Origin: Nemertoderma westbladi
Lineage: Eukaryota > Animalia > Xenacoelomorpha
Length of the DNA: 53,750 nt
Reading direction: 5' to 3'
NCBI GenBank assembly: GCA_032718475.1
Contig: JAUCBJ010002582.1
Span: 1 to 53,750, forward strand
Under the pieces are notes generated by a model, which saw only the letters and a list, made by a program, of their open reading frames with translations, did not search any database and was not told the DNA's origin. This document shows, one piece after another, positions 3,745-44,716 of the stretch. Position 1 is the stretch's first letter; every line of letters begins with the position of its first letter. The position numbers and the translations under genes are program-made.

Positions 3745-4353
3745 TCACAATACTGTGCATGTGCAATTCAATTTGATCTTTCGTTTACGTTTAGCGGCCG
3801 ATGCAGCCAGCTGTACCTTTTTATGGTTATGAAGAGCAATCTCCGCAATCCGATGAAACACTTTCTCGACATTAATATTTTCCTTCGCACTAGTCTCATA
3901 GAATTCTATGCCGTTCTGTTCTGCATACGAGTTGGCGTCGTCGAATTCAACAACCCGAGCGTCCGGCCCGCAGTCGCATTTGTTGCCGACCAACAATATG
4001 CCAATGTTGTTGTCACAATTCTGTGCTATTTCGTTAATCCATCTTTTAACGCTAATAAATGTGTGAGCGTTCGTGATGTCATACACGACGATAACACCGT
4101 GCGCACCGCGGTACCAAGTGGATGTTATTATGCGAAAGCACTCCAATCCAGCTGTATCCCAAATCTGCAGTTTTACCTTTTCACCTTCCGGCATTACAAT
4201 TTTTGTGACATTGTAATCAACACCGATTGTTGGCATAGGAGAGACTGTAAAAGTATCATTAACAAAACGTCTGAGAAGATTGCTTTTACCAACAGGAGAA
4301 TCACCAACAATTATCAGTTTAAACATATAATCATAACCCTTATCAGTGGCCAT
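3745..4353 (-). CDS. Rab35: Rab35-like small GTPase, copy A (202 aa, intronless; G3 reads DTAGL; C-terminus KRKRKIKLNCTCTVL)
   Basis: G1 GDSPVGKS, G2 PTIGVDY, G3 WDTAGLE, G4 GNKCD, G5 ETSAK. Rab35-type signatures GEKVKLQIW, YRGAHGVIVVYD, VKRWINEIAQNC and SAKENINVE. It is a divergent paralog, not necessarily the true ortholog. Confidence 0.9.
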   Translation of the reverse strand: MATDKGYDYMFKLIIVGDSPVGKSNLLRRFVNDTFTVSPMPTIGVDYNVTKIVMPEGEKVKLQIWDTAGLECFRIITSTWYRGAHGVIVVYDITNAHTFISVKRWINEIAQNCDNNIGILLVGNKCDCGPDARVVEFDDANSYAEQNGIEFYETSAKENINVEKVFHRIAEIALHNHKKVQLAASAAKRKRKIKLNCTCTVL

Positions 4354-4599
4354 TACCAGATCGATGGTATAGGATTATTACAAATTCACTACTACCATAG
4401 TTTCCACTACTACAAGAATGTATAGGTTTGCTAAATCAATAACATAATTGAACTTAATTTTATTATTTTTTTGTAAGATTGAATCCTCTAACCACGTTAA
4501 ATTAAATCTACAATTTATATACCGGTACTACAGTAGTAGAAATCCATTTATTGGATTTATTTATTCTCGGGAAATACCTGATGAACGTGAGATGTAGGA

Positions 4600-4849
4600 G
4601 ATCCCAACCAACGCGGACGCGTGACGGGGATGCGTCAAGCGTTAAGCGTCAAAAGCAATAAGAGGGGAGCGGGATTTTTAAATATTAATTTTTAAACTGA
4701 AATTCAAAATGGATGCTGAGGATTTACTGCTGCTTGCAGTCATTAACCGCAGAAGAAACAGAAAAAACCGTCGTTTCTGGATACATCCCTTGTGGTCTCG
4801 TTTCTGGATACATCCCTTGTGGTCTCGTTTCTGGATACATCCATTGTGA
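4600..4849 (+). mobile_element. 5' fragment of a PIF/Harbinger-type transposase gene
   Basis: ATG at 4709 reads MDAEDLLLLAVINRRRNRKNRRFWIHPLWS. A hydrophobic patch, then an Arg-rich run, then W(V/I)HP is the typical N-terminus of animal Harbinger transposases. The ORF runs into the 27-bp array and stops in the third unit. Confidence 0.6.
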
Positions 4850-6120
4850 TATCGTTTCTGGATACATCCCTTGTGGTCTCGTTTTTGGATACATCCCTTG
4901 TGGTCTCGTTTCTGGATACATCCCTTGTGGTCTCGTTTCTGGATACATCCCTTGTGGTCTCGTTTCTGGATACATCCCTTGTGGTCTCGTTTCTGGATAC
5001 ATCCCTTGTGGTCTCGTTTCTGGATACATCCCTTGTGGTCTCGTTTCTGGATACATCCCTTTTGGTCTCGTTTCTGGATACATCCCTTGTGGTCTCGTTT
5101 CTGGATACATCCCTTGTGGTCTCGTTTCTGGATACATCCATTGTGGTCTCGTTTCTGGATACATCCCTTGTGGTCTCGTTTCTGGATACATCCCTTGTGG
5201 TCTCGTTTCTGGATACATCCCTTGTGGTCTCGTTTCTGGATACATCCCATGTAGTCTCGTTTCTGGATACATCCCTTGTGGTCTCGTTTCTGGATACATC
5301 CCTTGTGGTCTCGTTTCTGGATACATCCCTTGTGGTCTCGTTTCTGGGTACATCCCTTGTGGTCTCGTTTCTGGATACATCCCTTGTGGTCTCGTTTCTG
5401 GATACATCCCTTGTGGTCTCGTTTCTGGATACATCCCTTGTGGTCTCGTTTCTGGATACATCCCTTGTGGTCTCGTTTCTGGATACATCCCATGTAGTCT
5501 CGTTTCTGGATACATCCCTTGTGGTCTCGTTTCTGGATACATCCCTTGTGGTCTCGTTTCTGGATACATCCCTTGTGGTCTCGTTTCTGGATACATCCCA
5601 TGGAGTCTCGTTTCTGGATACATCCCTTGTGGTCTCGTTTCTGGATACATCCCTTGTGGTCTCGTTTCTGGATACATCCCTTGTGGTCTCGTTTCTGGGT
5701 ACATCCCTTGTGGTCTCGTTTCTGGGTACATCCCTTGTGGTCTCGTTTCTGGATACATCCCTTGTGGTCTCGTTTCTGGATACATCCCTTGTGGTCTCGT
5801 TTCTGGATACATCCCTTGTGGTCTCGTTTCTGGATACATCCCTTGTGGTCTCGTTTCTGGATACATCCCATGTAGTCTCGTTTCTGGATACATCCCTTGT
5901 GGTCTCGTTTCTGGATACATCCCTTGTGGTCTCGTTTCTGGATACATCCCATGTAGTCTCGTTTCTGGATACATCCCTTGTGGTCTCGTTTCTGGATACA
6001 TCCCTTGTGGTCTCGTTTCTGGATACATCCCTTGTGGTCTCGTTTCTGGATACATCCCTTGTGGTCTCGTTTCTGGATACATCCCTTGTGGTCTCGTTTC
6101 TGGATACATCCCTTGTGGTC
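4770..6120. repeat. 27-bp tandem minisatellite, ~50 copies, consensus TCGTTTCTGGATACATCCCTTGTGGTC
   Basis: Read directly; very homogeneous, with recurrent variants (CCCATGTAG, CTGGGTACA). It explains the overlapping repetitive ORFs in all six frames. Confidence 0.98.
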
Positions 6121-7429
6121 ATGCAGACCAGCAATGGGAGACTACTTTGTGCAATAGACCAAGCTGCCTATATGGGAACCACCATTACCGTTCCTCCTGG
6201 TATCCATCAAGAACGAAAGTGAACAGGTGGCGACCTACAAATGGCTCAGCAGAACTCTCAACATTTCACTGTCGGAGAACACCGAGTGGACAATATGATC
6301 CTGCTATCACTGCTCCAATCTCGCACTCGCTATTAATTGAATACTATTGCGATGTCTATATTTTATTTCTGTGCCGTAATCCGAATTTTGTATATAAATT
6401 ACCGCTTGGGAATTATTTATTACTGAAAGTGAAATAGTTTTTATTATTAAAAACTTAATACGCAAAATAATATTTTGCGGATTAAGTATTTTGTAGAACC
6501 AAACAATAACTATGTAAATAATGTGATGTATTGTCTTACAATTTAGCAGCTTTAGAAATATTTTCTGTCTACTGATTAGGAGTTTATATAGAGGATAGAG
6601 TCAAGTCAGTGGAATTATCTCTTGTATTTTATCATCATATTAATATCCAAATATAGTCTGCGATAGATAATAAATCAATGAGCTCACATGGGGTAGGATA
6701 ATTACCAGACAATAGTAAAAGAGATAATTATAATATTGTGTCAGTGTCTGCGAACTATTATATTAGCATGCGTTGTTTGGACTGGACGCAAAACCACGCC
6801 TCATTGTTAAATTCTCAATTTAGGGAAAGGAGCAGGTTACAGTGGAACGTTATTTTAACCAAAACAATAAACTAAACACAATAGAACAGGTTACAGTTTC
6901 GTTTTTGCTCGTAAACAGGAAACCGCTGTTATTTGCGTCCAATTTCCCCTGGTGAGTTTAGGGTCTGTGGCAGCCCTAACGCCTCCGATTTTAGTAAAGA
7001 CTCGGGGTTAAATTTGTATTGCGTCCAGTTCCCCCCCCCCCCCCCCCCCCCTATCTGTATTAAGGCAACAATAAAAAGCGCAAATAACTTAAACTTCATG
7101 ATTTGAGAAACCAAGATACTAAAAAACAGCTGACGTTTCGATTTATTTAACAATAATCATTATCAAAGCAAAAACAAATACCTGAAAATTAGTGAAAGAC
7201 AGTGCTAAATACAAAATACAATATCTGTATTGTTTAGAGGGTGTGTGAGGTGCCCGGAGACCAACAAATTCATTTCACGATCTGGCTGAAACCCTGATTT
7301 AAGGTGTAGTCGAGTTTTGGAGCCTTTTTGGCTATCACTCCCTCGGGATTCGCTTAATGCAAGAAGTCACATTGTACCTCATTGCCGTAATCTAATATTT
7401 GTCACGAACCACTATTATTCATACGTCTA

Positions 7430-7960
7430 CATTCTTATGCATTTTGATTGCACCAACGAACCTTTCGGTCGACTTGGACCCTTAGATACGGCTTGTATTC
7501 CCAAGTAGGATGCGCCATCGCTCCATCGGGATTGATGAAGAACCACTGGTTATGACACAGGCCTTTACAATGGAATTATCTGAACTATTAACATGAGAGA
7601 AAATGTAAAATATATTTGAACGTAATACAGATTTAAAGGTATTAACTCTATTAAACACAATTATAGTGTTGGCATCATCCGTTCCAGAATATTTGAAAAG
7701 AAGGTGGAATGATGTATTACATGATACTTTCAGTTTACGTAGATTTTCTACTAACAGCAGTAAATGCTATAACAGAAACATAACGTTTTAAATAATGCCA
7801 GTTTAACTAAGTCTTAACAAAGTCTACATCCTCGCCATTAGAGGCAACCGAGTTGAAAATGTTATTATATTTCGTTTGAAAAATATCAGCAATATCATCG
7901 CAACTGGTTGCCTTACCAACAGTAGTTAGTACGTGGTGTAGTTTTAATACTATTTTGTTT
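7430..7960 (-). mobile_element. Internally deleted copy of the RTE-X-like LINE fragment at 19105-20640
   Basis: Matches 19120-19470 and then jumps to 20497-20640. Confidence 0.7.
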
Positions 7961-8339
7961 TTTTACATATGTAAATAATTAGTCAGTCTTTTACTTAATT
8001 AATTGTACCGCCTCATTTTCACGGGACTGTTTACACTAGTGAATTATATAAATGATCATTTGCTGTCAGGAAATGAACGAATCAGTGAATTAGGGCGCTA
8101 CCGGAAAAAAGAGGCATATAAAAGAGGCATATTCAAGCGTCCTTCACTATGAAGGTGAACTATAGCGCACTTACGTTTGCGTATGTCACTCAGGGGAATT
8201 TATTGCCAAACATCCGACACTGTAATAAAATCTTATGACACTAAAATTGTGGGTAAAACCATTTTCGTTCAAATGCGCTAACACATTGGTTTATCTTTAA
8301 ACCATGGGAAATCACAGGTATTCGCCCCTCACGGTGCTG

Positions 8340-9580
8340 ACCGAAAGCCCAACTCACTCCGACAGTCAATCCCAGTCATTTCAAGCGCTCTAACTCTGTT
8401 AGGGTCTCCCATCGGCCCTCAGCCATACTGCCATGAGGTTGTTTTGCAATGTGTAAGCAAAGTGAGTGATATCATTGCCCGATTACCTGACTTAAAAGAC
8501 TAAAAGATTAAAATACTTCCTGTTATGATAGTGTCTGTCATACCAAAGGTCGTGTTTGCTCTCTCCTCCAAATTACATATGTCTGACTCCTCTGAGTTTG
8601 ACGCCAAACTCAAGGAGGCCTTGTCATATATAGTTGGTGGTAGTAGCTGGCTCAAAGCATCCCGTCCATCTTCAATGGGTGGCCTAGGTCTACGTAAGAC
8701 TGCAGATCACACCCCAACAGCATATGTTGCTTCAGCCCGCCTATCACACAATTTAGTTAACTGAATCCTCAGCCAACGCCCCCTACAGACCCTCACCTTA
8801 TTACAGCCATATAAAAAGTCTTGCCTGTGCAGAGGAGAACCCTGAATGGTCATTATCAGATAGGCTTCCTTCTCCTCTGACGCAACGCGCACTGTCTCAT
8901 GCCATTGACACGGCAAACCATGACCATTTAATATCCATAGCTCCAAACACCCGTTCCATTGCTCTGTGCAACTCCACCTCATTAACTCATGCCGAAGATT
9001 AGCCACACGTCATCCTATCTGCTCTACTTGGCCTTCACATATTGTGGATAGGGAATATCACACTTACCTGGAATGCCTGCAATACTGGCTGGGAATACGT
9101 ATGTCTTCTGAACCATCATCCTGCCCTGTCTGTGGGTTAGCATCGGACAATTTTGGGGACCATAACATCGGTTGTGGTGGACCTGACGACCGCATCAGCC
9201 GTCACGACTCTCTCAGGGATGCAATCTTCTCTGCAGTACAATCAGGCATTGTTGTATCCCGCAGCCGCCCAGCTGATGTATATATTCCCAACTGGCGCAG
9301 ATGTCAAGGTCAACCTATGGCCCTGGATGTTACAGTTATCTCTAGTCTCCAGGCACTCACTATTCAAGGATGAGCCCGCCACCCGGGCCATGCTCTCACA
9401 GTTGCTAGGGAACGCAAGACAGCCGCCCACACAGCAGACTGCCATTCCTCTGGGGAGGGGTTCACCCCACTTGTAGTCAAAGCGATATTCCAGCGCCTGT
9501 CATTCTATCTGTAACGCCGCAATATGGCTCCACCGCTTAACCACAGTCTAACCATTAATAGACGGAGTACAGTAAATGTA
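8340..9580 (+). mobile_element. Degraded 3' portion of a CRE-clade non-LTR retrotransposon (post-RT region, CCHC finger, restriction-like endonuclease)
   Basis: WLKASRPSSMGGLGLR (LPxxxGGLG motif), CPVC...GDHNIGC zinc knuckle, SRHDSLRD, RPADVYIPNW...ALDVTVIS (PD..D RLE). It has frameshifts and stops. Confidence 0.8.
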
Positions 9581-10160
9581 ATGAATGCCCCACGTGTTTA
9601 CATTTGTGTTCAACTCTCGTGCTTTTTTTTTACACAAAATAATAATTTAGGTGCTCCCTATTAATTTTGTATATAATTAATATTATATATATATTATATA
9701 TTTTTATATATTTTTATTTATTTATTATATATTATATATATTATATAATTAATTCTCGCTCTCACCATTATTTTCGCTGTGTAAAGTAAAATTATTTAAC
9801 GTAGTGCTTGTGCCTTCAACTTAATTTGTAAACATAAACATTAACATCGGTGCTTATGTATTCTGATTACGAGTGAATATTTATTTATTATTGAATTATT
9901 AAAAAAATTGAAAAAAGTTTTGAAAAAAATTAATTATAAGCAAATAACTATATTAATTTGTTTGGTGGTATACATTAGAGAAAGTTTAATTTTAAACTCA
10001 AATATTCGCGATATCTCTTTTAAATGACATGATATAGGCCTAATACAACATATAAAATAGAAAAACAAGTTAATTAAAATTAATTTAGAGTTTATTAAAA
10101 TAAACTCAATCTAATTAATATAGTCGAAATATTGTCAGCAATGAATCTATTGGGCATCTA

Positions 10161-10772
10161 TTATGATACTGTGCAGTTCAAATTGCTATTTCGTTTAGGT
10201 TTAGCGGCCGATGCAGCCAGCAGTACCTTTTTATGGTTATTTAGAGCAATCTCTGCAATCCGATGAAACACTTTCTCGACATTAATATTCTCCTTCGCAC
10301 TAGTCTCATAGAATTCTATGCCCTTCTGTTCTGCATACGACTTGGCGTTGTTGAATTCAACAACCCGAGCGTCCGGCCCGCGGTCGCATTTGTTGCCAAC
10401 CAACAATTTGGCCACGTTTTTCCCACAATAATGCGATATTACTTTGAGCCATCTCTTTTCAATGCTACCGAATGTTTCAGCCCTTGTGACGTCATACACA
10501 ACAATAACACCGTGAAAAAAATCAAAGGTCGGAAATAGTAGGCTGAATGGTGGGCGCCCACTTCCATTTAATATATAAACTTTAAGTTCCACTTTTTCAC
10601 AACTCGACATTAAAATTGTTGCGCTCATTAAATCCACAATCCCCCTTGTTGGAGGTAGAGTTTCTATAAAAGTGTTATTATTAAAACGACGGAAAAGACT
10701 GGTTTTGCCAACAAGATTGTTTCCAACAATCATCAGTTTAAGCGAATAATCATAATCCTTCTCAGTGGCCAT
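10161..10772 (-). CDS. Highly divergent Rab35-like GTPase, copy B (203 aa; G3 degenerate, possible pseudo-GTPase; C-terminus KPKRNSNLNCTVS)
   Basis: G1 GNNLVGKTS, G4 GNKCD and G5 ETSAK are retained. WDTAGQ is replaced by YILNGS and switch II is unrecognisable. The C-terminal half is nearly identical to the other copies and the ORF is uninterrupted. Confidence 0.85.
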   Translation of the reverse strand: MATEKDYDYSLKLMIVGNNLVGKTSLFRRFNNNTFIETLPPTRGIVDLMSATILMSSCEKVELKVYILNGSGRPPFSLLFPTFDFFHGVIVVYDVTRAETFGSIEKRWLKVISHYCGKNVAKLLVGNKCDRGPDARVVEFNNAKSYAEQKGIEFYETSAKENINVEKVFHRIAEIALNNHKKVLLAASAAKPKRNSNLNCTVS

Positions 10773-11065
10773 TATGAGATCGATGGTACAATTGGTACAG
10801 GATTATTACAAGTTTACTACCCTAACTACAGTACCACAACAATAATGTATAGATTTAGGGTCTGATACTGAAATAACTAATATTTTAGAGTTTAATACAG
10901 TACTAAAGAGAGAGACTAAAACTACTGTAGACTTGACTTGACATTCCTGAACCATTGAATTACGATTTTAGGATAAATAGGCATACAGTATATAACAAGA
11001 TTGATGTGGTGTTTATAATAAATCATAGTAAATCTTATCTTAAGCTCAGCGAGTGTTGGACAATG

Positions 11066-12080
11066 CTTGTAGACGACTCCTGTTACCTGGGATCATGGAT
11101 CCAGAAGTCAGGTGAGGACCAGGAGAGAGAAATGCATGGGCAGCATTGAATGGGCTTTCCAGGACTTGGAAGTCACTCAGAATTCATTGGAAACTTAAGG
11201 TCCAAATATTTAGAGCAGCAATAGTTCCAGTACCCCTCTATGGGAGTCCATGCTGGGCTCTACTGCTGAGGACCCAAATCTCTGGATTATAACCTTTTGT
11301 TGGGCACAGCTTTTGCAAAGTCGGCAATGAATTCCAGGTGGGATCGAACTGGTGACCTCCGGGTTGGAAGGCTGACGCTCTAACAGTTCAGCTAGCGGCT
11401 CAGGTAAAAGATAGACCTGGAAATACTATCCTTGTTTGTCCTTGTTTGTCCGCAATATACCTTCTCATGGCCATCTGCCAAAATCCATCATATGCTGCCA
11501 CTGTGCTCAACCCTATCGTACTTGGCCGTCTTTAACCACTCGCTACAATGAAAGGGTAGTGTATATTAACCATGAACCATCACGGCCACAATGATTAATT
11601 AAACACTCTAGCTACTAATTTAGATAGGACAGTTACACCCATAGAGAAATGCGACCGATATATTTATAATTTTTATTGGTGTTATGGGTGAATGAGTAGT
11701 TTCATATTATGAATAGATAAATATAAATACATATAATGAATGGTTTCTGGGTGGCATATTCACGTAAAGTTCACGTCTGGTCAAGTACAGTATAATGCGC
11801 ACATCTCCAACAAGACACTATATAACATTGGCGGTGTCTCATTGGTTCCCCCAAGATTGACACTAGAACAAAGCCGCTTCTGCTTTGAAAGAGCCGTTAG
11901 AGCCGTGAAAGAAGCCGTTAGGACCACCCTGTGCACAATCTCCCTGTGCAGCCCCATGGATAAAATAAGCATAGTGGACAGCCTATGGCTTTCATGAGAA
12001 GCCCCCTAAAGGACACTGGCTTTGGAGATGCGGATAATCTCGTGAATATCATGGGGGATAGGGAGATGTGGCGGTGCAAT
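11066..12080 (+). mobile_element. Degraded 3' fragment of the same RTE family as 22276-24927, split by a ~460-bp insertion (11288-11745)
   Basis: DDSCYLGSWIQKSGED and YNAHISNKTLYNIGGVSLVPP match the RTE ORF. The RTE sequence breaks at TCTGGAT (11281-11287) and resumes at TCTGGGT (11746-11752). Confidence 0.85.
11331..11400 (-). other. tRNA-derived (SINE-like) module with Pol III A and B boxes; not a functional tRNA call
   Basis: Minus strand reads GCCGCTAGCTGAACTGTTAGAGCGTCAGCCTTCCAACCCGGAGGTCACCAGTTCGATCCCACC. The acceptor stem does not pair. A related sequence lies at 52005-52075. Confidence 0.6.
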
Positions 12081-12702
12081 AATGTTTTGCGATTAAAAAA
12101 ATGTATCTTGCAATATTAAAAGCTTGAACATTCCAACTCCCATATATCCGCTTTATCTCAATAAAATTTAATGGTATTTGGTATAAACAAAATTAACATT
12201 AAAATTATTTCATGGACATGCTCTGCTACCTAGGATACAGCTATGTGTATATACTGAGCTATACAGCCATGCTAGTACAACCTCATCCTGCGTTCTGACC
12301 TGACAAACTGCTGAACTGTATGTAATACAGTAGTGACGTGGTTCGGTTATGTCTAGCCTCAAGCTGGTACAAGCTCGCCCAACAACAGTACTGCAGTAAG
12401 CCTACATCTGCACATATGTAATACTTTCCAGGAACATGGCAAGTACCTGCAAAACATGAGAGAGAAAAGTAACACTTGCAATATAACCTAAAGCAAATTA
12501 AGAAATAACTTAACCTAAAGAAATAACTTACATGCTCTGTCAAGTTTACCAAATTTTTGTTACTAAACATATTTTGACAAATTATAATAAACTGAAAGCA
12601 AGTAACTTGCAAAACTTAGGAAATGTACTATGAATTTTCAACAGGGCTTTGTTGGTAAGCCGGCATAGCATTCTTAATGCACGCTGCATTCGGCTTGCCT
12701 AT

Positions 12703-22275: not shown

Positions 22276-24927
22276 TAGTACTAGGATCGGCATGCTGCAT
22301 TTTTAAGAATGCTGTGCCGGCTTATCAACAAAATTGCACCGCCACAACTCCCTATCACCCATGACATTTGCTAGATCATCCGGATCTTCAAGGCCAGTGT
22401 CCTTTAAGATGCGTCTCAAGAAAGTCATGGGCTGTCCACCATGCTTATTCACTTCATGAGGCTGCCAAAGTACAAGATTATGCACTGGCTGGTCCTCAAG
22501 GCGAAAGCAATGTCCTGCAAGGCGGAGGCGATTTTGTTCTAGTGTCAAGCTTGGGGGAACCAATGAGACACCTCCAATGTTATATAGTGTCTCGTTGGAG
22601 ATGTGTGCATTGTACTTGACACAATGAACCCGGCGTAGCATTCTTGTGAATGTGCCATCCAGAGATTTGGTGTCCTCAGCAGTTAGAGCCCAGCATGGAC
22701 TCCCATAGAGGAGTACTGGAACTACTGCTGGCCTAAATAATCGGACCTTAAGTTTCCTATTAATTCTCGGTGACTTCCAAATCCTGGAAAGCCTATTCAA
22801 GGCTGCCCATGCCTTTCCCTTACGTATTCGATGGTCCTCACCTGACTTCCGGATCCATGATCCCAGGTAACAGAAGTCATCCACATGCTCAAGAATACCA
22901 TCTTTTGAGCTTATGCTCATCCGATCAGAGACTTGCTGAGGACTTTCAAAGTTAACTGTCAAAATTTTTGTCTTTCTGGAGTTAATAAAAAGACCAACTC
23001 TAGAAGCAGCATGTTCTAATGAGCTGAGAAGCCATTGGGATCCCTCTAGTGATTCTGAGAGTACTCCTAAGTCATCAGCAAAGTCTAGATCAGTTAGGTA
23101 CTTGGCAGGATTTCCTCGACTTCTGGAGCCAGTAGGTGGAGTTATCATCACCCCATCATCATTATGATGATCTAAGGACATGCGTAGAACATAGTCAACA
23201 ACAATTATGAACAAGAATGGTGCAAGTGTGTCTCCCTGGAGGACGCCCCATAACACTTCAAATGGTTCTGTGTCACCGTCAACAGTAGACACAAATGTTG
23301 TCGAACCATCGTATACTAATCTGATTGCTGCAACAATTTCATCAGGAATCCCATATAATGAAAGTATGCTGAACATACGTGAGCGAGAGACTGAATCAAA
23401 GGCCTTGAAGAAGTCAACAAAGATAACAGCCAGATGCCTGTCTTTCTTTTGATAACTCTTCAATTATCCTTCTAAGTGCCAAAATGGGCTCCACGGTCCC
23501 ACGACCTTTACGGAACCCATTCTGATTTCCACGGAGCAGTCTCTCAATGGGATCCCTGATGCGATTTAATAGAATTCTATTGTATAGCTTTGCAGCAATC
23601 GAGATCAATGAGATTCCCCGAAAAGAACCATAGAGTGTTAGGTTGCCCTTCTTGGGAACTGGCGCCAACTTATCTGTTTTCATTTCTTGTGGGACTCTTG
23701 TTGTTCGGTACATGTCTACTATGATGGGATAGATGAGCTTTAAACACTAAGGTATTTTAAAGACCTCAGGGGGAACACCATCTATTCCACTGGCACGATT
23801 GGTCTTAATGCTCTTTGCAGCAGCCTTCACTTTTGCAAAGGAGATATCACCAATGGGAATATCTGGGAGTACAGACTCAGACACTTTTACTTCTATAAAG
23901 TTATCAGGCAATACCCTGTCATTATTGAGGAGCTTTTCAAAGTGGGCCTTCCAACCATTGAGGCGATCGGCTGGTGATTCAAGCCTTAACCTTGGTTGTT
24001 GTTTGGCTTTTTCGACCAGCAAGCAAGTTGATCGATCTCCATGCCTGGGATGATTGCCTGCTGTCGTCAGCATCATTGATGGCATCAACCTGTTGGTTTA
24101 TTAGCTCCTGTAATTTAACAGAGTACTGCCTGTTCAGGGACCTAGATGCAGCCTTAACTGCATTCTTGGCCGCTGTTGTCTGTTTGAGTCGGGACACTTT
24201 CTGCGCCTTGTAGAGGTAATTTCGGCACTTCTGAATTTTGTTGTCAGTCCAGGGGGCCCGTTTCCTGTTTCGAGGGTATACAGGAACTGTTTCTGCAGCT
24301 GCTAACTTAACTGCCTCTGTGAAGGCAGGATAGCCCTCACAGTGATCTGCCGCCTCAGAGACAAGAACCTCATACCTGTTGCTCAGCTGTAGTGTGAAGC
24401 TGGATTTCACACTTGGCTGTTGCAACAGAGAGGACCAGTCATGCCGCGGCAAGGCAGATTTCGTTGTTCTGCTAGCACGCAGACTAAGTCTTAAGTTATA
24501 GTTCATATCCGTACCGATGGTATTTTCGTATTGCAAAAATAAGACTATAAGTATGAAATACCCTATGTTATTGAGATAATGTTTATTGTTATGGTTAGAA
24601 AAGCCCACCACTGTAACCTCCTCCTTTCCGTTAATTAAGTAATGGAGATTAGTTTATTGTTTTGGTTAGAAAACACCACCACTGTAACACCATCGGTACG
24701 CATATGAACGATAACCAAGTCTTACCTTGGCCACAATAAGGCGGTGATCACTGGAGAAGGGTCGTAGTGTAAATGCATTACAGTCTTGTATACAGCTCCT
24801 GTATTTCCTACGAAACAGGATATGGTCTATCTGGGACTTGTGACCACTGGGTCCACTATGAGTCCATAGCTTTCCAGTTCGCTTCTTGAACTGGGTTCCA
24901 GCTGAAAACAATCCATTTCCAGAGATC
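22276..24927 (-). mobile_element. 5'-truncated RTE-clade LINE (C-terminal part of the AP endonuclease plus reverse transcriptase), frameshifted, with a 22-bp TSD
   Basis: APE end IDHIL...SDHRLIVAKV; RT motifs FRGISLISIAAKLYN, NQNGFRKGRG, FVDFFKAFDSV, GVLQGDTLAPFLF, DLDFADD. TSD CAGTTATCTCTAGTCTCCAGGC at 22254-22275 and 24928-24949. Confidence 0.95.
24494..24716. mobile_element. 223-bp MITE inserted in the RTE, with an 8-bp TSD
   Basis: ~28-bp TIRs (AGTTATAGTTCATATCCGTACCGATGGT / ACCATCGGTACGCATATGAACGATAACC); TSD AAGTCTTA at 24486-24493 and 24717-24724. Removing it restores the RTE reading SDHRLIVAKVRLSLRASR. Confidence 0.9.
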
Positions 24928-25687
24928 CAGTTATCTCTAGTCTCCAGGCACTCACTATTCAAGGATCAGCCCGCCACCCGGGCCATGCTCTCACAGTTGC
25001 TAGGGAACGCATGACAGCCATCCACACAGCAGACTGCCATTCCTCTGGGATGGGCTTCACGCTACTTGTAGTCAAAGCGATATTCCAGCGCCTGTCAGTC
25101 TGTCTGTAACGCCGCAATATGGCTCCGCCGCTTAACCACAGTCTAACCATTCATAGACGGAGTACAGTAAATGTAATGCCCCACTTGTGTTTACATTTGT
25201 GTTCAACTCTCGAGCTTTTTTTTTTTTTTTACACAAAATAATAATTTAGGTGCTCCCTATTAATTTTGTATCAGATTCATTCTCGCTCTGTCTATTATTT
25301 TCGCTTTGTAAAGTAAAATTATTTAACGTAGTGCTTGTGCCTTCAACGTTAATTTGTATATATATAAATCAAAATCAGTGCTTATGTATTCTGATTACGA
25401 GTGAATATTTATTTATTATTGAATTATTTTAAAAAAATTGAAAAAAGTTTTGAATTAAATATAAGCAAATAACTATTTTAATTTGTTTGGTGGTATACAT
25501 TAGAGAAAGTTCAATTTTAAACTCAAATATTCGCGATATCTCTTTTAAATGACATGATATAGGCCTAATACAACATATAAAATATAAAAACAAGTTAATT
25601 AAAATTAATTTATTAATTTAAATTAATTTATTACTATCTAATTAATATAGTCTACATATTGTCAGCAATGAATCTATTGGGCATCTA

Positions 25688-26299
25688 TTATGATACTGTG
25701 CAGTTCATATTGCTATTTCGTTTAGGTTTAATGGCCGATGCAGCCAGCAGTACCCTTTTATGGTTATGAAGAGCAATCTCTGCAATCCGATGAAACACTT
25801 TCTCGACATTAATATTCTCCTTCGCACTAGTCTCATATAATTCTATGCCGTTCTGTTCTGCATACGAGTTGGCGTCGTCGAATTCAACAACCCGAGCGTC
25901 CGGCCCACAGTCACATTTGTTGCCAACCAACAATTTGGCGACGTTTTCCTCACAAATCTGCACTATTTCGTTAATTCTTCTTTTGACGGTAATAAATGAT
26001 TCTGCACTTGTGATGTCGTACACGACGATAACACCGTGCGTGCCGCGGTACCATGTGGTTGTTATTCCGCGAAAGCGCTCATTACGCTCCTGTCCAGACG
26101 GAACCCAAATGTGCAGTTTTACCTTTTCACCTTCCGGCAATATAATTTTTATGATATTGAAATCAATACCGAGTGTTGGCATAGGAGAGACTGTAAAATT
26201 ATCATTAACAATACGTCTGAGAAGATTGCTTTTGCCAACAGCAGAATCACCAACAATCATCAATTTAAACAAATAATCATAATCTTTCTCAGTGGCCAT
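25688..26299 (-). CDS. Rab35: Rab35-like GTPase, copy C (203 aa; G3 WVPSGQ with a 3-aa ERN duplication; C-terminus KPKRNSNMNCTVS)
   Basis: G1 GDSAVGKS, PTLGIDF, YRGTHGVIVVYDITSAESF (close to Rab35), GNKCD, ETSAK; intact ORF. Confidence 0.9.
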   Translation of the reverse strand: MATEKDYDYLFKLMIVGDSAVGKSNLLRRIVNDNFTVSPMPTLGIDFNIIKIILPEGEKVKLHIWVPSGQERNERFRGITTTWYRGTHGVIVVYDITSAESFITVKRRINEIVQICEENVAKLLVGNKCDCGPDARVVEFDDANSYAEQNGIELYETSAKENINVEKVFHRIAEIALHNHKRVLLAASAIKPKRNSNMNCTVS

Positions 26300-26574
26300 T
26301 ACCAGAGCGATGGTACATGATTATTATATCTACCATAACTACCACTACAATACTGTATAGATTAGGGTCTGTTACTGGAATAACTAATAAAGTAGAGTTA
26401 TAATACAGTCGGCCTACTAAACAGAGAGACAAAACGCTTAATCTCTACCATAATTATTTAATTATTTTTTTTACATTTTATTAATTTTCAATGGGTGACA
26501 CTGACAGACAGAATGTAACAATGATTGAAGGTGACTGCAATTTTGTTACATTGAATCCTCTAACTATGATATCT

Positions 26575-27310: not shown

Positions 27311-27580
27311 ACAATTATATTCATGTTATATAATATTGTATTATTTTTATAATTTAACACTAATTACAAATTATAATCAGTTGTTTCGTAAAAATGGATA
27401 CTAAACACAGTGGAGATTAGATTTAAAAAATTCAATATAAAAAATAACTATTCTAAATTGTTTTGTGGTAGAGAAAGTTCAAACTTATATATAATATATA
27501 TATAAATGACCTGATATACAATATATAATATTTAATATTTAATATTTAAAATTGTCAGAGACGAAACCAAAGGGGACTGA

Positions 27581-28186
27581 TCACAATACTGTGCACTTCA
27601 ATTTGCTCTTTCGTTTACGTTTAACGGCCGATGCAGCCAGCATTACCCTTTTATGGTTATGAAGAGCAATCTCTGCAATCCGATGAAAGACTTTCTCAAC
27701 ATTAATATTCTCCTTCGCACTAGTCTCATATAATTCTATGCCGTTCTGTTCTGCATACGAGTTGGCGTCGTCGAATTCAACAACCCGAGTGTCTGGCCCG
27801 CAGTCGCATTTGTTGCCGACCAACAATTTGGCGACGTTTCCCTCACAATTCTGCACTATTTCGTTAATTCTTCTTTTAACGGTAATAAATGTTTCAGCTC
27901 TTGTGATGTCATACACAACGATAACACCCTGTGCGCCGCGGTACCATGTGGTTGTTATTCCGCGAAAGCGCTCCTGTCCAGCCGTATCCCAAATCTGCAG
28001 TTTTACCTTTTCACTACTTGGCATTATAATTTTTTTGGTTTTGAAATCAACACCGATTGTTATCATATAAGGTGAGACTGTAAAAGTATCATTAAAAAAA
28101 CGACTGAGAAGACTGCTTTTACCAACATCAGAATCACCAACAACCATCAGTTTAAATAAATAATCATAATCCTTCTCAGTGGCCAT
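27581..28186 (-). CDS. Rab35: Rab35-like GTPase, copy D (201 aa; canonical G motifs; C-terminus KRKRKSKLKCTVL)
   Basis: GDSDVGKSSLL, TIGVDFK, KVKLQIWDTAGQERFR, YRGAQGVIVVYD, GNKCD, ETSAKENINVE; the most canonical copy. Confidence 0.92.
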   Translation of the reverse strand: MATEKDYDYLFKLMVVGDSDVGKSSLLSRFFNDTFTVSPYMITIGVDFKTKKIIMPSSEKVKLQIWDTAGQERFRGITTTWYRGAQGVIVVYDITRAETFITVKRRINEIVQNCEGNVAKLLVGNKCDCGPDTRVVEFDDANSYAEQNGIELYETSAKENINVEKVFHRIAEIALHNHKRVMLAASAVKRKRKSKLKCTVL

Positions 28187-28311
28187 TACGAGATCGATGG
28201 TACAGGATAATTATAAGTTTACTATCCTACTGTAACTCCCACAACATAACAATAATGTAATTATCTACACCATAACAAACCATCGGGATGCAAGCAAAAA
28301 ATCGAGCAATA

Positions 28312-28358
28312 CCAGCGCAGATCGTTTCGGCCGGCATCAGGCCTCGTCAGACACACTG
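28312..28358 (-). ncRNA. Minimal type I hammerhead ribozyme core (probably degenerate)
   Basis: Minus strand: CAGTGTGT-CTGACGA-GGCC-TGATGCC-GGCC-GAAAC-GATC-TGCGCTG, i.e. CUGANGA, a 4-bp stem II and GAAA. Stems I and III are imperfect. A decayed mirror copy lies at ~30350-30390 (+). Confidence 0.55.
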
Positions 28359-29799
28359 CCTCGTGCGTGACACTAGATTAACAACTATTTCAGTAATTGA
28401 CAACTACATGTATGCAATGCTGTAAAATGGATGCCAAACATAACAACTATTTAGAATTTGCGGAGTGGGTCGTAACCGCTGAATAACTTTGACTACAGAT
28501 TAAAGTCATCCGTTAGGATGGGCTGCAGTCAATAGTATCCGTTAGGATACTTATAGACAATAACATTATGTTGGTTTGCTAGCATTAAGTCCAGTATGCC
28601 AGTACTGTACTGTGTACTGTACTGTGTACAGTACTGTTGACTATGTTTAAAGTATAAATTTACTGTTGTATTTTGATCCTGTCGTCAGTGTACTGCCTTT
28701 TGCATGCACTTTTTACACGTTCGTGGGGACTTCGCGCAGCACGAGGCCTAGTTATTATATACAAATTAAAATGCAGCGACTGTATCACAAAATCAGGTTT
28801 TGAGAAATTTACCCACACCACCAATCAATCAAAGAAAGGTGGACAGTACGTGTTCACCCCTTTTAATCTCCCCCCCCCCCCCCACCCTTCCCAACCACCA
28901 ATACATAACCGCGACATCTACCACCCACGGAAGGGTAGCACGAACTTATTTCCAATCGCACGTTAAATATGCAAAGCCAGGTGGTTTATAGGAATATAAT
29001 AAACGCAGTACTCGTTTTCATTATAAGCCTCTTTGCGTTCGTCCTGTTTTGTATTTAAATATATTTCTTAAACGCAAGCTAGGACGATCTTTATAATAAT
29101 AATAACTAGGGATGCGATCAATATGTGAAGCCAGGTGGTTTATATAATAATTTAGTCAACGCAGTACTCGTCTTCATTATATGCCTCGTTGCGCTCGTCG
29201 CTTGTCCTGTTTTGTCATAAAATATTTTTCCTAAACGCAGACTGACGATCTTTATACAGTTATAACTATGCGAAGTTTCGAAACTGTGCGAGTAACTGTT
29301 GATACATCTATGTGGAGATGTGTGATATGTGGAGATGTGTGATACAACGCCAACGCATCTTATGCCGATGTAGTAATATGGGTATTGAAATAATATTAAA
29401 TCAATGTACACTCTTAAAGCTGCAGCGAAAAAATGTAGCTAATTTCCTAGGTTACATATAAAATAATAATATTATTTTTAAGAACATTAATTTTACTACT
29501 TTGCAAAAATTCAATTAAAAAATAACCAGACATATACATTGTGGAATAAACTATTTCAGAAGCCTACAACAGCCATGCCATGGATTGTATTTATGTTATT
29601 ATATCTGTCATTTAACTGAGATAGCAATAGTAGTAATAGTCGAACGGTTATGCGGCCCGTCCAGCCTATAATAAACACAATTCAGTGATTGGGCTGGAAT
29701 AGCAATACTGGTTGCCTCTATTACAATTCCTCTCAGGTTAGTCTACAGCCACAACTCCCAGCAGCTAGCTCCACACCAGCAGAGACTTGACCAATAATG

Positions 29800-30284
29800 G
29801 GAAGGATTAAATTTGTACTCAATAATTGTGCGGTTTAATTACGTTTAGATCAATTAAAGACACATTTATTAAAGCAAATCACTTAAACTAATTAAAAACT
29901 ATAATAGAATGGCGTATGGGGATTATATCTGTATAATTTTTAAGTATAATTATTTAAATCTTATACTGTAAAACAATTAATTTCCTTTAAAAGGCAGGTT
30001 GAAAATGGCGTTTTCACCGCAATCAACTTAATTAACTAATTAACTGCTATTATCTTAGCTTCTCGAAGGCCACACGGAAATTCTACTTGGAAAATTTCTA
30101 AACTTTTGCCAAACAACATGTGTACCAAGTTTGGATAGATTTCATCAAAGATTGGCCGAGTTATTAACGTTTAAAATTGAACACGACAGAACGACAGAAC
30201 GACAGAACGACAGAACGACAGAACGACAGGTTGATTAATGGTACCACTACGCTAAGGCTCACTCACTTCGTGGCTCGCCCCACA
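29800..30284. mobile_element. Partial Helentron/HINE-like element, copy 3, containing an (ACGACAGA)n tract at 30182-30228
   Basis: Ends GCTAAGGCTCACTCACTTCGTGGCTCGCCCCACA like 18975-19008, with internal similarity to 18855-18930. The family's other terminus is seen at 28715-28743. The left boundary is approximate. Confidence 0.55.
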
Positions 30285-31561
30285 GTAGGATGGCCTTTTG
30301 CCTTTGCTTTCTGTATCTAGTGTCACACACGAGGCACTGGAGGTAGTGTTTGTGACGACGCCAGATTCCGCCCGAAACGCTCTGTGCTGGTATTGCTCGA
30401 TTTTTTGCTTGCATCCCGATGGTTTGTTGCTGTTTATTCATCTATCGTCCCATTCAGTCATTCAGTAATTAACAAGAATGTAATTATCTTTAGGTCTATT
30501 TCTGGTACTAAAATCACTAATATAGTAGATTTATACTATAGTTCTAAACAGGGAGACTAAAACACCTATATACTGTATGTACCATAATTATGTACCATAA
30601 TTATGTTTTTTACTACTTTTTTAATTTTCAATGGGTGATAGACAAGACAGTATGTAATCATGATTGAAGGTGACATTGAATCATCTAACTGTGATACATT
30701 CGAACCACATTTTATTCTGCTATGGTCTGAATGTAACATAAAATATACATTAATTTAAAGAATTTCAGGAATTAATTGATGAAACCCGAGTTGTGCTTGT
30801 CTGCTCTGTGGAGATCGGGTCTCACTCCACTACCTACCAAACTACAACCACAACATCAAATCGCAAATTATTAGGCCGATTTCAACAGCTAACGGAAGGC
30901 CATCTACTGTATTAACTAGCTGGCGGTGCTTGCGCACCGCGAAAGGAGCTCTCTAGCTTCAGACGACTGTTCCACTGTCCACCTCTTCGTTCAAGTTACA
31001 CTCCGGCCAGCTACAAAGTTGCAAAAACAAGTTTCGGAAACAAGTTAGCAGCAACAAGATTCCCGCGTGTGAGGAGTCCAGCAACAAGTTACAGAAACAA
31101 GTTGCTCCGTGTTAGGGGGCCATATAGACGGACTTATTTTATTTATTTTTCATAGATAATAAAATATTTTAGATCGTCTTTATAATACAGGTAGATCGCT
31201 GTTTCTTTAAAAAAAATTATACAGTAGTTAGTCACTTGATTAACGTCAGAAAATTTTCTAGAATATAATTGACCGCAAAAATATTAATGCAATGTCTGTG
31301 TAGTTTACAAAATTCAAGAATAATGTTGATTTCTGTGCCCTCCCTTGTCCAAATTAGTATTGGAATTACTGTCTGGTGATAAATTAATACTGGAGTGAAA
31401 TACAGTATATAGTCGATACGAAAAAGTATCTACTATACTTTTGCGGATTATTAAGTATTATTTTTGTAGTTAATAGATAATAAATCCTTAAACCGACTAA
31501 AACACAACGCGTTTATAAAATATTATTCGCGATCAGGATGACCTACTGAATACAGTTAGGC

Positions 31562-31790
31562 AATAGTACAGAATAGGATATAAGCAGTAGGCCTACCGGT
31601 CCGGTAAGCACCTACAGGTAAAATTTAACATAACTCTGCCAAGAATAGAAACATATGGTATCCAGATTACAGTAGGCCTAGTATAACTCAATTGTTTGAA
31701 TTAATTGAATTTCTATTTTTTCAACCATGTTTTTCTTGGCAGTTATATTAAATATAACCTGTAGGTACTTTTATCCTATGCTGCACTATT
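31562..31790. mobile_element. Small foldback MITE-like inverted repeat
   Basis: AATAGTACAGAATAGGATA...ACCTACAGGT...TGCCAAGAA is inverted at 31726-31790. Confidence 0.6.
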
Positions 31791-32640
31791 TATTGCCGTG
31801 CCACGGCATTAATTCATTGACTAACAAATTAGCAATATATCAATGGTTAAAGTTCGGTAGCTAAACACAAATTTGTACGACAAATTGAATAGATCTGGTT
31901 ATAAAGTATGGTTGCCTCCCTTACCCACAGTATTTGTGGGAGCACTTACCATATGTAAAAGATATTTATCTCGATACGAAACGACAGACGCTAGATATTG
32001 GTAGCTGTAAACTGAAACTGGACAACACTACAATTCCAGAATTTCAGTTATACTTCATACAAATAGAGACAGAATGATATAGTAGTGTGGCAAAATAGTG
32101 TGTAATAGTGCGCGACCCAGTGGGAAAGTAATAACACAACTACAGTAGGTCGCTTTGTCCCTCAAGTGCAGTGGTCGATCGATACTTATAATAATTGATA
32201 TCTGAAAATAATTAAACCTACAGACTTTTATACAAACAGTTCCGTTAGGGTTGCGGTACTAGTAGTATTAGAAAGTTCACGGGAAGTGCGATAACTCAAG
32301 AATAAAATGGCTACAAAATCATTATATCATTCAGTGATAAGGTTTATACTGTACGTACTGTATACTCCAAAAACAGACAACAAGTCAACAGGCTTATGAA
32401 AAGCTCATAAATAAATAGGTTCATGAATAATGTCGGTAATTTTATCTTGAGTTGTGGCCTAGAAAATAATAAACTAATTCACCCAGTGCACTATGAACCA
32501 GAATACTATAGCTAGTAAACCCATCTAGAACTCACCAATATAATATAGATACGCGAAAGAACATTCCGTTGTCTATCATATACAATAGGCGATAAAAAAC
32601 AATACCGTATAACAATGAAATATTTACAATTACACAAAAC

Positions 32641-32858
32641 TATAGTGGTTCAGAGTGGCCAGTTTTGTAATATCTTCTTTTGTTTCCCCTACTTTTGCAA
32701 ACTCGTTCGAACGACTTTACAAAACTCGGGTAAATAAAATAAGATTACAAATAACAAACTTTTGTTTTCCTGAGTTTTGTAAAGTCGTTCGAACGAGTTT
32801 GCCGAAGTAGGGGAAACAAAAGAAAAGATTACAAAACTGACCGCTCAGGCCCACCATA
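32641..32858. mobile_element. Foldback MITE-like element, ~95-bp arms
   Basis: CAGTTTTGTAAT...TTTTGTTTCCCCTACTT...CAAACTCGTTCGAACGACTTTACAAAACTC is mirrored by GAGTTTTGTAAAGTCGTTCGAACGAGTTTG...AAGTAGGGGAAACAAAAGAA...ATTACAAAACTG. Confidence 0.8.
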
Positions 32859-33524
32859 ATAACTATTAGTTGTTTCATGAAAACGGATAATAAACTGCGT
32901 TATGTTATGATACCGCATGAACTGCACCAGACCTACTTACTGTAGTGTATTGTATGTAATAGGACTGCATATATCTGTAGGACAATGGTAGGTAATACTA
33001 ACACAAGCATAATGGATCAACATGAAGATAACACACAAGTAGGATAACAGTGTATCGATATTGAATATGATTGACAGGTCCAATATAACGGACGACCTAT
33101 CTGTCTCAGACAAAGTCCGTGTAATTAATGAGTTAATGAAATCACACCAATTTTATTTCAGCGAATTCCTGAAATTCTAGTTTAGAATTTCATTTAATTA
33201 CTCTGAGTTTTTTATTTTAGATATTTACTTTCAGTAGTTTTCAAAAATTTAAATAAAATTTTAGTGACTTCGGCGGGTGGGTGGAGATTTATAATCATTT
33301 CCATCCTCCTGACCAGTCAAATTTTAAAAATAAATTAAATAAACCAAAATTACTATTTCAATTTGTTTGGTGTCAATCTTGTATAATTGAATTCTAAACG
33401 CAAATATGAATGTTGTGCTAATTAAATGACCTGATATATAATATATCATATTAATTAAATAAACATAATGTAATTAATATCTAACAATTAATTGTCAGTA
33501 TGAAACCACAGGGCATTGAGCACA

Positions 33525-33573
33525 CTACTTACTTACTGTGCACATTTTGCATTTTCGTTTACGTTTAGCGGCC
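33525..33573 (-). pseudogene. 3' remnant of a fifth Rab35-like copy (E)
   Basis: Minus strand encodes AAKRKRKCKMCTVSK*. TTTCGTTTACGTTTAGCGGCC is identical to copy A (3779-3799). The adjacent 33340-33520 resembles the Rab 3' flank (TGTTTGGTG, AAATGACCTGATATA, ATTGTCAG..GAAACCA). The rest of the CDS is absent. Confidence 0.75.
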
Positions 33574-44715: not shown

Positions 44716-44716
44716 T

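What the first reader, a model, noticed from the sequence alone, without database searches (positions are those of the whole stretch)
3745..33573. Tandem array of intronless Rab35-like genes whose effector-binding switch surfaces are hyper-diversified (candidate undescribed immune or decoy system)
SEEN: four intact 201-203 aa ORFs plus one 3' remnant, all on the same strand and without introns. From GNKCD to the tail the proteins are almost identical, whereas switch I, interswitch, G3 and switch II differ radically and include in-frame indels (only multiples of 3). KNOWN: Rab35 is normally a single-copy, intron-containing, very conserved gene acting in endocytic recycling and phagocytosis. Rab1/Rab35 switch regions are targeted by bacterial effectors (Legionella DrrA/SidM AMPylation, AnkX phosphocholination). 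INFERENCE: a retrocopy-founded, birth-and-death Rab family under diversifying selection on the partner-binding face, as expected for host-pathogen conflict (decoys or effector-resistant variants) or a lineage-specific trafficking role. The neighbouring FReP gene is compatible with an immune locus but does not prove one.
Basis: partly seen in the sequence, partly recalled or inferred. Interest (0 to 1): 0.85.

Follow-up and report, generated by a model that had tools for sequence, protein, structure and literature searches.

The report
Rab35 copies with unconstrained switch regions
An invertebrate animal carries four side-by-side copies of the membrane-traffic switch gene Rab35 that keep the nucleotide-binding core almost unchanged but have rewritten the normally invariant switch regions, so they likely act as poorly switching membrane tags with copy-specific partners, while an immune or decoy role is untested.

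Summary
In detail: four intact Rab35-derived ORFs (A-D) and one tail remnant, all on the minus strand. They form one clade (100/99) beside Rab35. They are not decaying uniformly. Among A, C and D the G4-to-helix-5 core has dN/dS 0.065 (p=9e-8 against 1), while the switches, helix 3 and tail sit near 1.0 with even synonymous rates. Site tests for positive selection are only borderline. Key motifs are altered: A carries the Q67L change used in active Rab35 constructs, B and C have lost the G3 aspartate, and all four end in a CaaX box. Copy B is a mosaic: a deeply diverged middle (dS about 0.8) between flanks close to C (dS about 0.06), as expected when gene conversion is kept out of a selected region. 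Public contigs confirm B's sequence. One run that behaves like RNA holds a polyadenylated C-type contig, a likely 5'-UTR intron and a more distant outside copy. Best reading: a young, functional, deregulated Rab35 family. Retrocopy origin and immune decoy role are not shown. Rab35 expansions are already reported in a clam. New variant of a known kind.

The parts
3745..4353 (-). Copy A, 202 aa. G18P, F45Y, Q67L, Y77W (Rab35 numbering); ends CTCTVL
10161..10772 (-). Copy B, 203 aa, most diverged. G3 DTAGQ replaced by NGSGR, triad F45/W62/Y77 all lost; keeps GKT, T40, NKCD, SAK; ends CTVS
   Evidence: switch part identical in contigs of X1 and X4, one difference over 748 bases in X2
10427..10722 (-). 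Island of divergence inside B (about codons 17-115): 55-77% identical to C in 60-base windows, flanked by 85-100% identity in the rest of the gene and in non-coding flanks
25688..26299 (-). Copy C, 203 aa. G18A, D63V, three-codon insertion in switch II, Y77W; ends CTVS; likely transcribed
26375..26392 (-). Pyrimidine-rich 3' splice-site-like sequence ending 75 bases above the ATG of C; the C-type 5' contig of X3 begins at its AG; similar sequence above A, B and at the displaced upstream of D
   Evidence: splicing is inferred, no joined exon seen
25382..25417 (-). Two overlapping AATAAA signals and likely poly(A) site of C (25382); the genome is not A-rich there
27581..28186 (-). Copy D, 201 aa, closest to canonical Rab35 (DTAGQ intact); G18D, one-codon insertion in switch I, Y77W; ends CTVL
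28274..30428 (.). 2.15-kb element with terminal inverted repeats (89-nt arms, 90% complementary) inserted about 88 bases above the ATG of D
30471..30696 (-). Displaced upstream region of D, homologous to the upstream regions of B and C
   Evidence: self-BLAST
33319..33581 (-). Remnant E: last 16 codons of a fifth copy plus its 3' flank
37652..39775 (-). Neighbour, not shown to belong: single-exon 707-aa coiled-coil plus fibrinogen C-terminal domain gene

Best explanation
These are four young tandem copies of Rab35 whose nucleotide-binding core (G4 to helix 5) is under purifying selection while their switch regions, helix 3 and tails change freely, so they likely work as lipid-anchored, nucleotide-bound but poorly switching membrane tags that have left the Rab35 regulator and effector network. 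Shown: the clade, the split constraint, the altered motifs, the CaaX ends and the mosaic structure of B. Inferred: (1) a separate, more distant copy seen in the read data is the parent and keeps the normal Rab35 job, which frees the copies; (2) the CaaX end after a basic stretch would let farnesyl- or geranylgeranyl-transferase I anchor them without the Rab escort protein, removing one constraint on the switch face; (3) A would be GTP-locked (Q67L), B and C would switch poorly (no G3 aspartate), D would cycle most nearly normally; (4) the array grew by tandem duplication, with gene conversion or unequal crossing-over evening out B's flanks with C while B's middle stayed distinct, probably because it has its own partner. 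The most likely setting is endocytic or phagocytic membrane, where Rab35 works; this is by analogy only.
For: Clade of four 100/99, sister to 16 Rab35s (88/87, not starred); grouping with Rab1 rejected, p-AU 2.8e-6; 12-14 of 25 diagnostic columns Rab35-type against 4-6 Rab1-type. Core dN/dS 0.065, p=8.7e-8 against 1; rest 1.01. Core differences of A-C, A-D, C-D fall on third positions (0/0/6, 1/0/6, 1/0/6). 0 of 20000 permutations give so quiet a 58-codon window; synonymous variation is even (p=0.81). Seven of seven coding indels in frame against 1 of 5 in the B/C 3' flank. A neutral sequence at B's distance stays stop-free in 3-4% of simulations. G20, K21, T40, NKxD and SAK are invariant in a 51-row alignment that includes all four. 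WDTAGQ is in 138 of 138 Rab35-like hits but only in D; a single-cysteine CaaX end is in 1 of 138 hits; B, C and D have one, and A ends in a CaaX box with a second cysteine. The Rab35 chain of 6IF2 reads TAGL, as A does. B-C synonymous differences 19 of 54 in the 5' half against 2 of 71 in the 3' half, p=1.3e-6; no such contrast among A/C/D. C-type contig with non-templated poly(A) in X3.
Against: No biochemical or localisation data. dN/dS near 1 fits plain loss of constraint as well as new function. Only four sequences, with recombination, and my own codon-model code rather than PAML. X3 is listed as 'DNA?'; that it is RNA is my inference, and contigs cannot prove an RNA end or level. The parent's full sequence and tail were not seen, so the CaaX end may predate the copies (one cnidarian Rab35 has one). 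Some CaaX Rabs still use the escort protein (recalled, not checked). B's island could equally be a segment imported from an older paralogue. A transposon sits in D's upstream region and one copy is already a remnant.
Confidence: 0.58

Rival explanations
1. Host-microbe conflict: the copies are decoys for, or variants resistant to, bacterial enzymes that attack Rab switch regions, and positive selection drives their switch faces apart.
For: Site models lean positive: all four copies M1a/M2a p=0.008, M8a/M8 p=0.0009, about 31% of sites at dN/dS 2.5; A/C/D M8a/M8 p=0.025. Several normally fixed positions have three or four different residues (G18: P/L/A/D; I41; K46; I47; R48; D63; Q67). Y77 and T72 are changed in all four. 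Bacterial effectors modify Rab1/Rab35 switch II (PMC10115812, PMC7818423, passages). Rab35 is reported expanded in a symbiont-digesting clam (PMC9993606, section 9). Extra copies or alleles exist.
Against: The strongest p-values come from the alignment in which B's mosaic structure breaks the model; with B's middle alone p=0.19 and 0.034, without B p=0.14 and 0.025. A decoy would be expected to keep the attacked surface; these lose it, while T76, the Rab35 residue that AnkX modifies, is kept in all four. Helix 3 and the tail vary as much as the switches. No infection or tissue data. The fibrinogen-domain neighbour is only adjacent.
Confidence: 0.2
2. Slow decay: redundant duplicates whose only remaining constraint is to fold harmlessly (or whose constraint has recently ended); switch changes are neutral or are favoured only because they stop the copies from interfering with the parent's partners.
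For: dN/dS of 1.01 outside the core, not different from 1 (p=0.96). B's middle differs almost equally at the three codon positions (0.37-0.40, 0.31-0.34, 0.40-0.42). One remnant, one transposon insertion, many retroelement fragments between copies. A comparable Drosophila cluster of six Rab loci was reported without detected expression for the two loci tested (PMC3402473, passage).
Against: Strong purifying selection on 58 core codons since A, C and D split; all indels in frame; G1 lysine, G2 threonine, G4, G5 and the prenylation cysteine kept in all four; B still open at dS about 0.8; C likely polyadenylated.
Confidence: 0.17
3. Assembly or alignment artefact: B is a chimera of reads, or the copies are uncollapsed haplotypes.
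For: The window is rich in satellites and repeats; B and C share 80.7% over 1.2 kb.
Against: B's switch segment is reproduced letter for letter by contigs from two samples (X1, X4; one may be the source); a 1623-base contig in X1 joins the start of C to the end of D; copies differ by 11-23%; no frameshift explains B.
Confidence: 0.03

Closest known systems
Canonical Rab35 (PDB 3TW8, 6EKK, 6IF2, 6IF3)
   Same: Best sequence match (60-64% for D, up to 48% for B), Rab35-type diagnostic residues, predicted Rab fold (B: pLDDT 88.5, TM 0.76-0.81 to Rab1/Rab35/Rab8), G4 and G5 intact.
   Different: 27-51 of 115 columns that are at least 90% conserved in 16 Rab35s are changed; G3 lost in B and C, Q67L in A; Y77 and T72 changed in all; CaaX end instead of di-cysteine; tandem copies with uninterrupted coding sequence.
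Rab35 expansion in the chemosymbiotic clam Conchocele bisecta (PMC9993606, section 9 and one row of Table S11 read)
   Same: Multi-copy Rab35 in an invertebrate, linked by the authors to phagocytic handling of bacteria; gene counts for KO K07876 range from 1 to 60 over eight species.
   Different: Counts by KO label only in what I read; I did not see the species header of the table, nor any analysis of sequence, arrangement, motifs or selection. Relationship to this array untested.
Drosophila melanogaster X-linked Rab cluster at 9C-F (RabX2, RabX3 and four near-identical loci; PMC3402473, passage read)
   Same: Young, lineage-specific cluster of Rab duplicates.
   Different: Four of six loci are 99% identical and no expression was found for the two tested; here the copies differ by 19-40% in protein with a selected core and likely transcription.
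Peak of divergence under gene conversion, as in red/green opsins (PMC3924837, passages read)
   Same: B versus C: a diverged coding segment, synonymous sites included, between near-identical flanks.
   Different: Seen here in one pair from one haplotype; import from an older paralogue is not excluded.
Pseudo-Rab proteins such as EhRabX10 (PMC8514894, search listing and start of abstract only)
   Same: Rab fold with degenerate G motifs.
   Different: B and C lose G3 but keep G1, G2, G4 and G5; they are recent offshoots of one animal Rab.

Membership tests
Rab35 subfamily (descent) | Groups with Rab35, not with Rab1 or other Rabs | tested here: met
   Sister to 16 Rab35s, 88/87 (not starred); with Rab1 rejected p-AU 2.8e-6; in one tree the clade was drawn to a long Rab10-like branch. 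Rab8, Rab13 and this animal's own Rabs were not in the tree.
Rab35 subfamily (descent) | Rab35-type residues at columns that separate Rab35 from Rab1 | tested here: met
   12-14 of 25 Rab35-type, 4-6 Rab1-type
Canonical cycling Rab35 | G1 GxxxxGK[S/T], G2 Thr, G4 NKxD, G5 SAK | tested here: met
   All four keep them; G18 within G1 is P, L, A or D
Canonical cycling Rab35 | G3 WDTAGQ | tested here: not met
   Intact only in D; A has Q67L, C D63V, B D63N and Q67R; 138 of 138 Rab35-like hits have it
Canonical cycling Rab35 | Hydrophobic triad F45/W62/Y77 (triad definition recalled; title of the defining paper seen) | tested here: not met
   Y77W in A, C, D; F45Y in A; all three lost in B
Canonical cycling Rab35 | Di-cysteine C-terminus | tested here: not met
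   Ends CTCTVL, CTVS, CTVS, CTVL; 113 of 138 hits end CC, CCX or CCXX(X), 1 of 138 in a single-cysteine CaaX
Canonical cycling Rab35 | GTP hydrolysis, DENND1 activation, GDI/REP and effector binding | not testable with these tools
   Needs biochemistry
Retrogene family | Loss of the parent's coding introns | tested here: inconclusive
   Coding sequences have none; the parent's genomic structure was not seen (no genome held; one search shows only pieces)
Retrogene family | Poly(A) remnant and target-site duplication | tested here: inconclusive
   No run of 8 or more A within 450 bases after any stop; runs at 457 (C) and 529 (B) lie beyond C's likely poly(A) site; target-site duplications not searched
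Positively selected immune or decoy gene family | Sites with dN/dS above 1 on the interaction face | tested here: inconclusive
   p from 0.0009 to 0.19 depending on data and model; region mean 1.01
Positively selected immune or decoy gene family | Induction by microbes, binding of microbial effectors, integration with a receptor | not testable with these tools
   No such data; no receptor domain fused
Neofunctionalised duplicate under gene conversion | Divergence peak, synonymous sites included, between homogenised flanks | tested here: met
   B vs C dS 0.77 against 0.055, p=1.8e-7; sliding identity; cause not established

The most novel reading that the evidence does not exclude
An animal has turned Rab35 into a variable family of escort-independent, locked or non-switching membrane GTPases in an arms race with microbes that attack Rab switch regions: each copy shows a different switch face on a constant nucleotide-bound scaffold, gene conversion shuffles or protects those faces, and copy content differs between individuals.
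Probability: 0.17. Interest if true: 0.85.

Novelty: new variant of a known kind. Interest (0 to 1): 0.56.

Why it matters
Rab35's switch motifs are nearly fixed from sponges to fish (WDTAGQ in 138 of 138 hits). Here they are the free part of the protein while the nucleotide-base pocket and the face opposite the switches are held. The array is a natural series of switch mutants, including the laboratory's active Q67L form, caught early in divergence. It makes two open questions testable: how a new Rab escapes the escort protein, GDI, GEF and effectors of its parent, and whether Rab35 expansions in invertebrates (so far counted, as in the clam, but not dissected in the papers I found) are driven by microbes.

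Tried and rejected
No whole genome is held, so the parent gene, its introns and the full copy number were not examined. Sequencing-run search: no RNA holder listed; this is no evidence either way. Reads were laid only on the copy B region, so C, D and A were seen only where they align to B; the switch regions of A, C and D were not checked against other samples. In X3 the unique middle and upstream of B have no cover, and tails of type A and D are not shown; A-type tail letters appear only in X4 and D-type only in X1/X2; holes in contigs prove nothing, so neither silence of B nor copy-number variation is claimed. Contig depth was not used to rank expression or count copies. Idea that B's middle came from a Rho-type or other GTPase: rejected, its best solved matches are Rab35, then Rab12, Rab18, Rab1; the atlas gave only generic Ras-family clusters. 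Compensated frameshift in B: rejected. Gene conversion as the cause of the conserved core among A/C/D: rejected, synonymous rates are even. Single-sequence fold of B failed (pLDDT 37); the alignment-based fold is driven by the Rab alignment and is not independent proof of folding. No closer relative found: best 64% for D among 7983 candidates scored, 48% for B among the 120 listed, 61% for A among the 150 listed; exact sequences absent. The animal could not be placed from Rab35 or fibrinogen-domain hits. The first tree lacked Rab1 and was superseded. No complex prediction was run. Ten literature searches found no description of such an array; the library lacks most subscription papers. PMC8016483, PMC4431667, PMC11450138, PMC5391186 and PMC13393502 were searched by term and gave nothing decisive; no passage confirming escort-independent prenylation of a CaaX Rab was found.
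Full report
Observation. The window holds four intact minus-strand ORFs of 201-203 aa, here A (3745-4353), B (10161-10772), C (25688-26299) and D (27581-28186), and a remnant of a fifth copy's last codons and 3' flank at 33319-33581. All match Pfam Ras. D's best solved relatives are three Rab35 constructs (208-212 bits), ahead of Rab1 (180), and its best database hits are named Rab35 at 60-64% identity. None of the four sequences is in the protein collection. The source is an animal, but the hits do not place it; earlier unchecked notes call the genome an invertebrate with intron-bearing genes.

Descent. In a 30-row tree the four copies form a clade (100/99) that is sister to 16 Rab35s (88/87, below the starred level). 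In a 28-row tree they were drawn towards a long Rab10-like branch, but holding them with Rab1 was rejected (p-AU 2.8e-6). At 25 columns that separate Rab35 from Rab1 they carry 12-14 Rab35-type and 4-6 Rab1-type residues. They are one young Rab35 offshoot, not several old subfamilies.

Selection. Among A, C and D, codons with amino-acid variation number 4 of 14 (N-terminus), 28 of 71 (P-loop to switch II), 12 of 34 (beta4-helix3), 2 of 58 (G4 to helix 5) and 11 of 23 (tail); synonymous variation among the unchanged codons is 2 of 10, 5 of 43, 5 of 22, 8 of 56 and 0 of 12. A codon model that I coded myself (GY94 type, F3x4) gives dN/dS 0.49, 1.01, 0.93, 0.065 and 1.66; only the core differs from 1 (p=8.7e-8). 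The regions were drawn after seeing the alignment, so I also ran a permutation test that allows for the choice of window: 0 of 20000 shuffles gave so quiet a 58-codon stretch, while synonymous changes showed no such stretch (p=0.81). The core is therefore held by purifying selection on protein, not by conversion. All seven coding indels are in frame, against 1 of 5 in the B/C 3' flank. Positive selection is not established. With all four copies, M1a/M2a gives p=0.008 and M8a/M8 p=0.0009, but B's mosaic structure violates the model; on the middle region alone p=0.19 and 0.034, and without B p=0.14 and 0.025. The variable zone also includes helix 3 and the tail, so it is not confined to the partner-binding face.

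Copy B is a mosaic. B and C are 87-92% alike in 60-base windows from 140 bases upstream to the start, 55-77% alike over roughly bases 40-370 of the coding sequence, and 87-100% alike from there through more than 300 bases of 3' flank. Synonymous sites follow: 19 of 54 differ in the 5' half against 2 of 71 in the 3' half (p=1.3e-6); A-B 16 of 52 against 5 of 68; B-D 15 of 56 against 5 of 65; the A/C/D pairs show no contrast (p=0.58-0.79). Model dS for B-C is 0.77 against 0.055. No frameshift explains it, and B's middle still matches Rab35 best. A peak of divergence between homogenised flanks is the published signature of selection keeping gene conversion out of a region with a new function (PMC3924837, passages). 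Import of the segment from an older paralogue gives the same picture and is not excluded. A neutral sequence at this distance stays free of stops in 3-4% of simulations, indels not counted.

Motifs (Rab35 numbering). All four keep G20-K21-S/T22, T40, NKxD and SAK. G18 is P, L, A and D. G3 is intact only in D: A has Q67L, C has D63V, B has D63N and Q67R; WDTAGQ is present in 138 of 138 Rab35-like database hits chosen by length and the RGTHG motif. The Rab35 chain of the effector complexes 6IF2/6IF3 reads TAGL like A; that this is the standard GTP-locked form is established knowledge. Y77 is W in A, C and D and missing in B; T72 is changed in all; T76 is kept in all. All end in a CaaX box after 3-7 basic residues; only 1 of 138 hits ends in a single-cysteine CaaX, and 113 end CC, CCX or CCXX(X). 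FTase and GGTase-I act on CaaX boxes, preferring Ser and Leu at the end respectively (PMC8389838, passage), whereas ordinary Rabs must first bind the escort protein through the G domain (PMC5902221, passages). With an alignment, B is predicted as a complete Rab fold (pLDDT 88.5, lowest in switch II at 61; TM 0.76-0.81 to Rab structures); this leans on the alignment.

Public reads. Four runs of one organism from three studies hold part of D's words; none is on record as RNA. Laid on B, contigs of X1 and X4 reproduce the switch segment with no difference and X2 with one difference in 748 bases, upstream of the ATG; a 1623-base contig of X1 joins the start of C to the end of D. One of these samples may be the window's source. 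X3 behaves like an RNA library. Its 541-base contig carries C's diagnostic letters and ends in an A-run at the place matching 25382, 26-30 bases after two AATAAA signals, where the genome is not A-rich. Its C-type 5' contig begins exactly at the AG of a pyrimidine-rich acceptor 75 bases above the ATG, which suggests a 5'-UTR intron; no joined exon was seen. A second contig has D's count of differences (10 over 88 bases). A 1004-base contig is a copy absent from the window: it differs from B at 11 of 84 bases where A, C and D differ at 2, 2 and 4, has the canonical Phe before ETSAK, and is four codons shorter than B between two anchors. It is the candidate parent; its switch sequence, tail and introns were not seen. 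X1, X2 and X4 also show contig types that fit no window copy (a third type at 10228; up to four with T at 10290), so further copies or alleles exist. The tool showed only part of its tables (32 of 112 pieces).

Surroundings. A 2.15-kb element with 89-base inverted arms sits 88 bases above D's ATG and displaces D's upstream region to 30471-30696. Retroelement fragments lie between the copies. A single-exon coiled-coil plus fibrinogen-domain gene lies 4 kb beyond the remnant; nothing ties it to the array.

Mechanism. The best-supported account is a functional family released from the Rab35 network: a parent keeps the old job; the copies keep nucleotide binding and a lipid anchor, likely no longer need the escort protein, and so can change their switches; A would be locked on, B and C would switch poorly, D would be nearest to normal. 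I give this 0.58. The conflict or decoy reading gets 0.2. Bacterial enzymes do modify Rab1 and Rab35 switch II (PMC10115812 and PMC7818423, passages) and a Vibrio protease cleaves Rab tails (PMC10153396, abstract and passages), but the selection signal is borderline, T76 is kept, and a decoy should keep the attacked surface. Slow decay gets 0.17. The first two are not exclusive.

Comparison with what is known. Rab35 arose from Rab1 before animals (PMC3425129, passages). Rab35 is reported as expanded in a symbiont-digesting clam, with KO counts of 1 to 60 over eight species (PMC9993606, section 9 and one supplement row; the species header was not seen). Drosophila has a young cluster of six Rab loci, four of them 99% identical (PMC3402473, passage). 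So multi-copy Rab35 and young Rab clusters are known. I found no account of this pattern of constraint, the natural Q67L and G3 losses, the CaaX ends or a conversion island in a Rab in ten searches of an open-licence library. By descent these are Rab35; by the G3, triad and C-terminal tests A, B and C are not canonical Rab35 and D only partly.

Verdict. Real feature, observation confirmed with corrections, interpretation partly supported. New variant of a known kind; interest 0.56, or 0.85 if the arms-race reading (0.17) proves true.

Noticed in passing
window 37652-39775 (-): Single-exon 707-aa gene: about 67 copies of a 21-base unit encode a long coiled coil ahead of a fibrinogen C-terminal domain; among proteins of 320-2000 aa the best matches to the domain are 38-52% identical. 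No signal peptide is evident in the ORF as listed, so a 5' exon may be missing.
   Followed up: partly
window 4771-6120: 50 copies of a 27-base unit directly upstream of copy A, open in several frames; probably a minisatellite, may affect A's promoter.
   Followed up: no
window 44708-50974: 6.3-kb purine-rich satellite of 45-46-base units with strong strand skew.
   Followed up: no
window 28274-30428: Non-coding-looking element with terminal inverted repeats in the upstream region of D; no ORF of 90 aa or more inside.
   Followed up: partly
window 22303-24506 (-), fragments at 11065-12086: Decayed non-LTR retrotransposon with reverse-transcriptase match, inserted into another repeat that is duplicated at 7222-9672.
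   Followed up: no
window 32641-32858: 218-base imperfect palindrome just downstream of remnant E.
   Followed up: no
window 34913-35487: 15/61-base AT-rich tandem repeat between remnant E and the fibrinogen-domain gene.
   Followed up: no
run X3, record 22, laid at window 10695-10740: A 774-base contig matching only the P-loop region with 8 differences in 46; probably another Rab of the same animal.
   Followed up: no
copies A, C and D, codon for Rab35 W102: W102, conserved in Rab35 and part of helix 3, is R in C and D but W in A and B.
   Followed up: no
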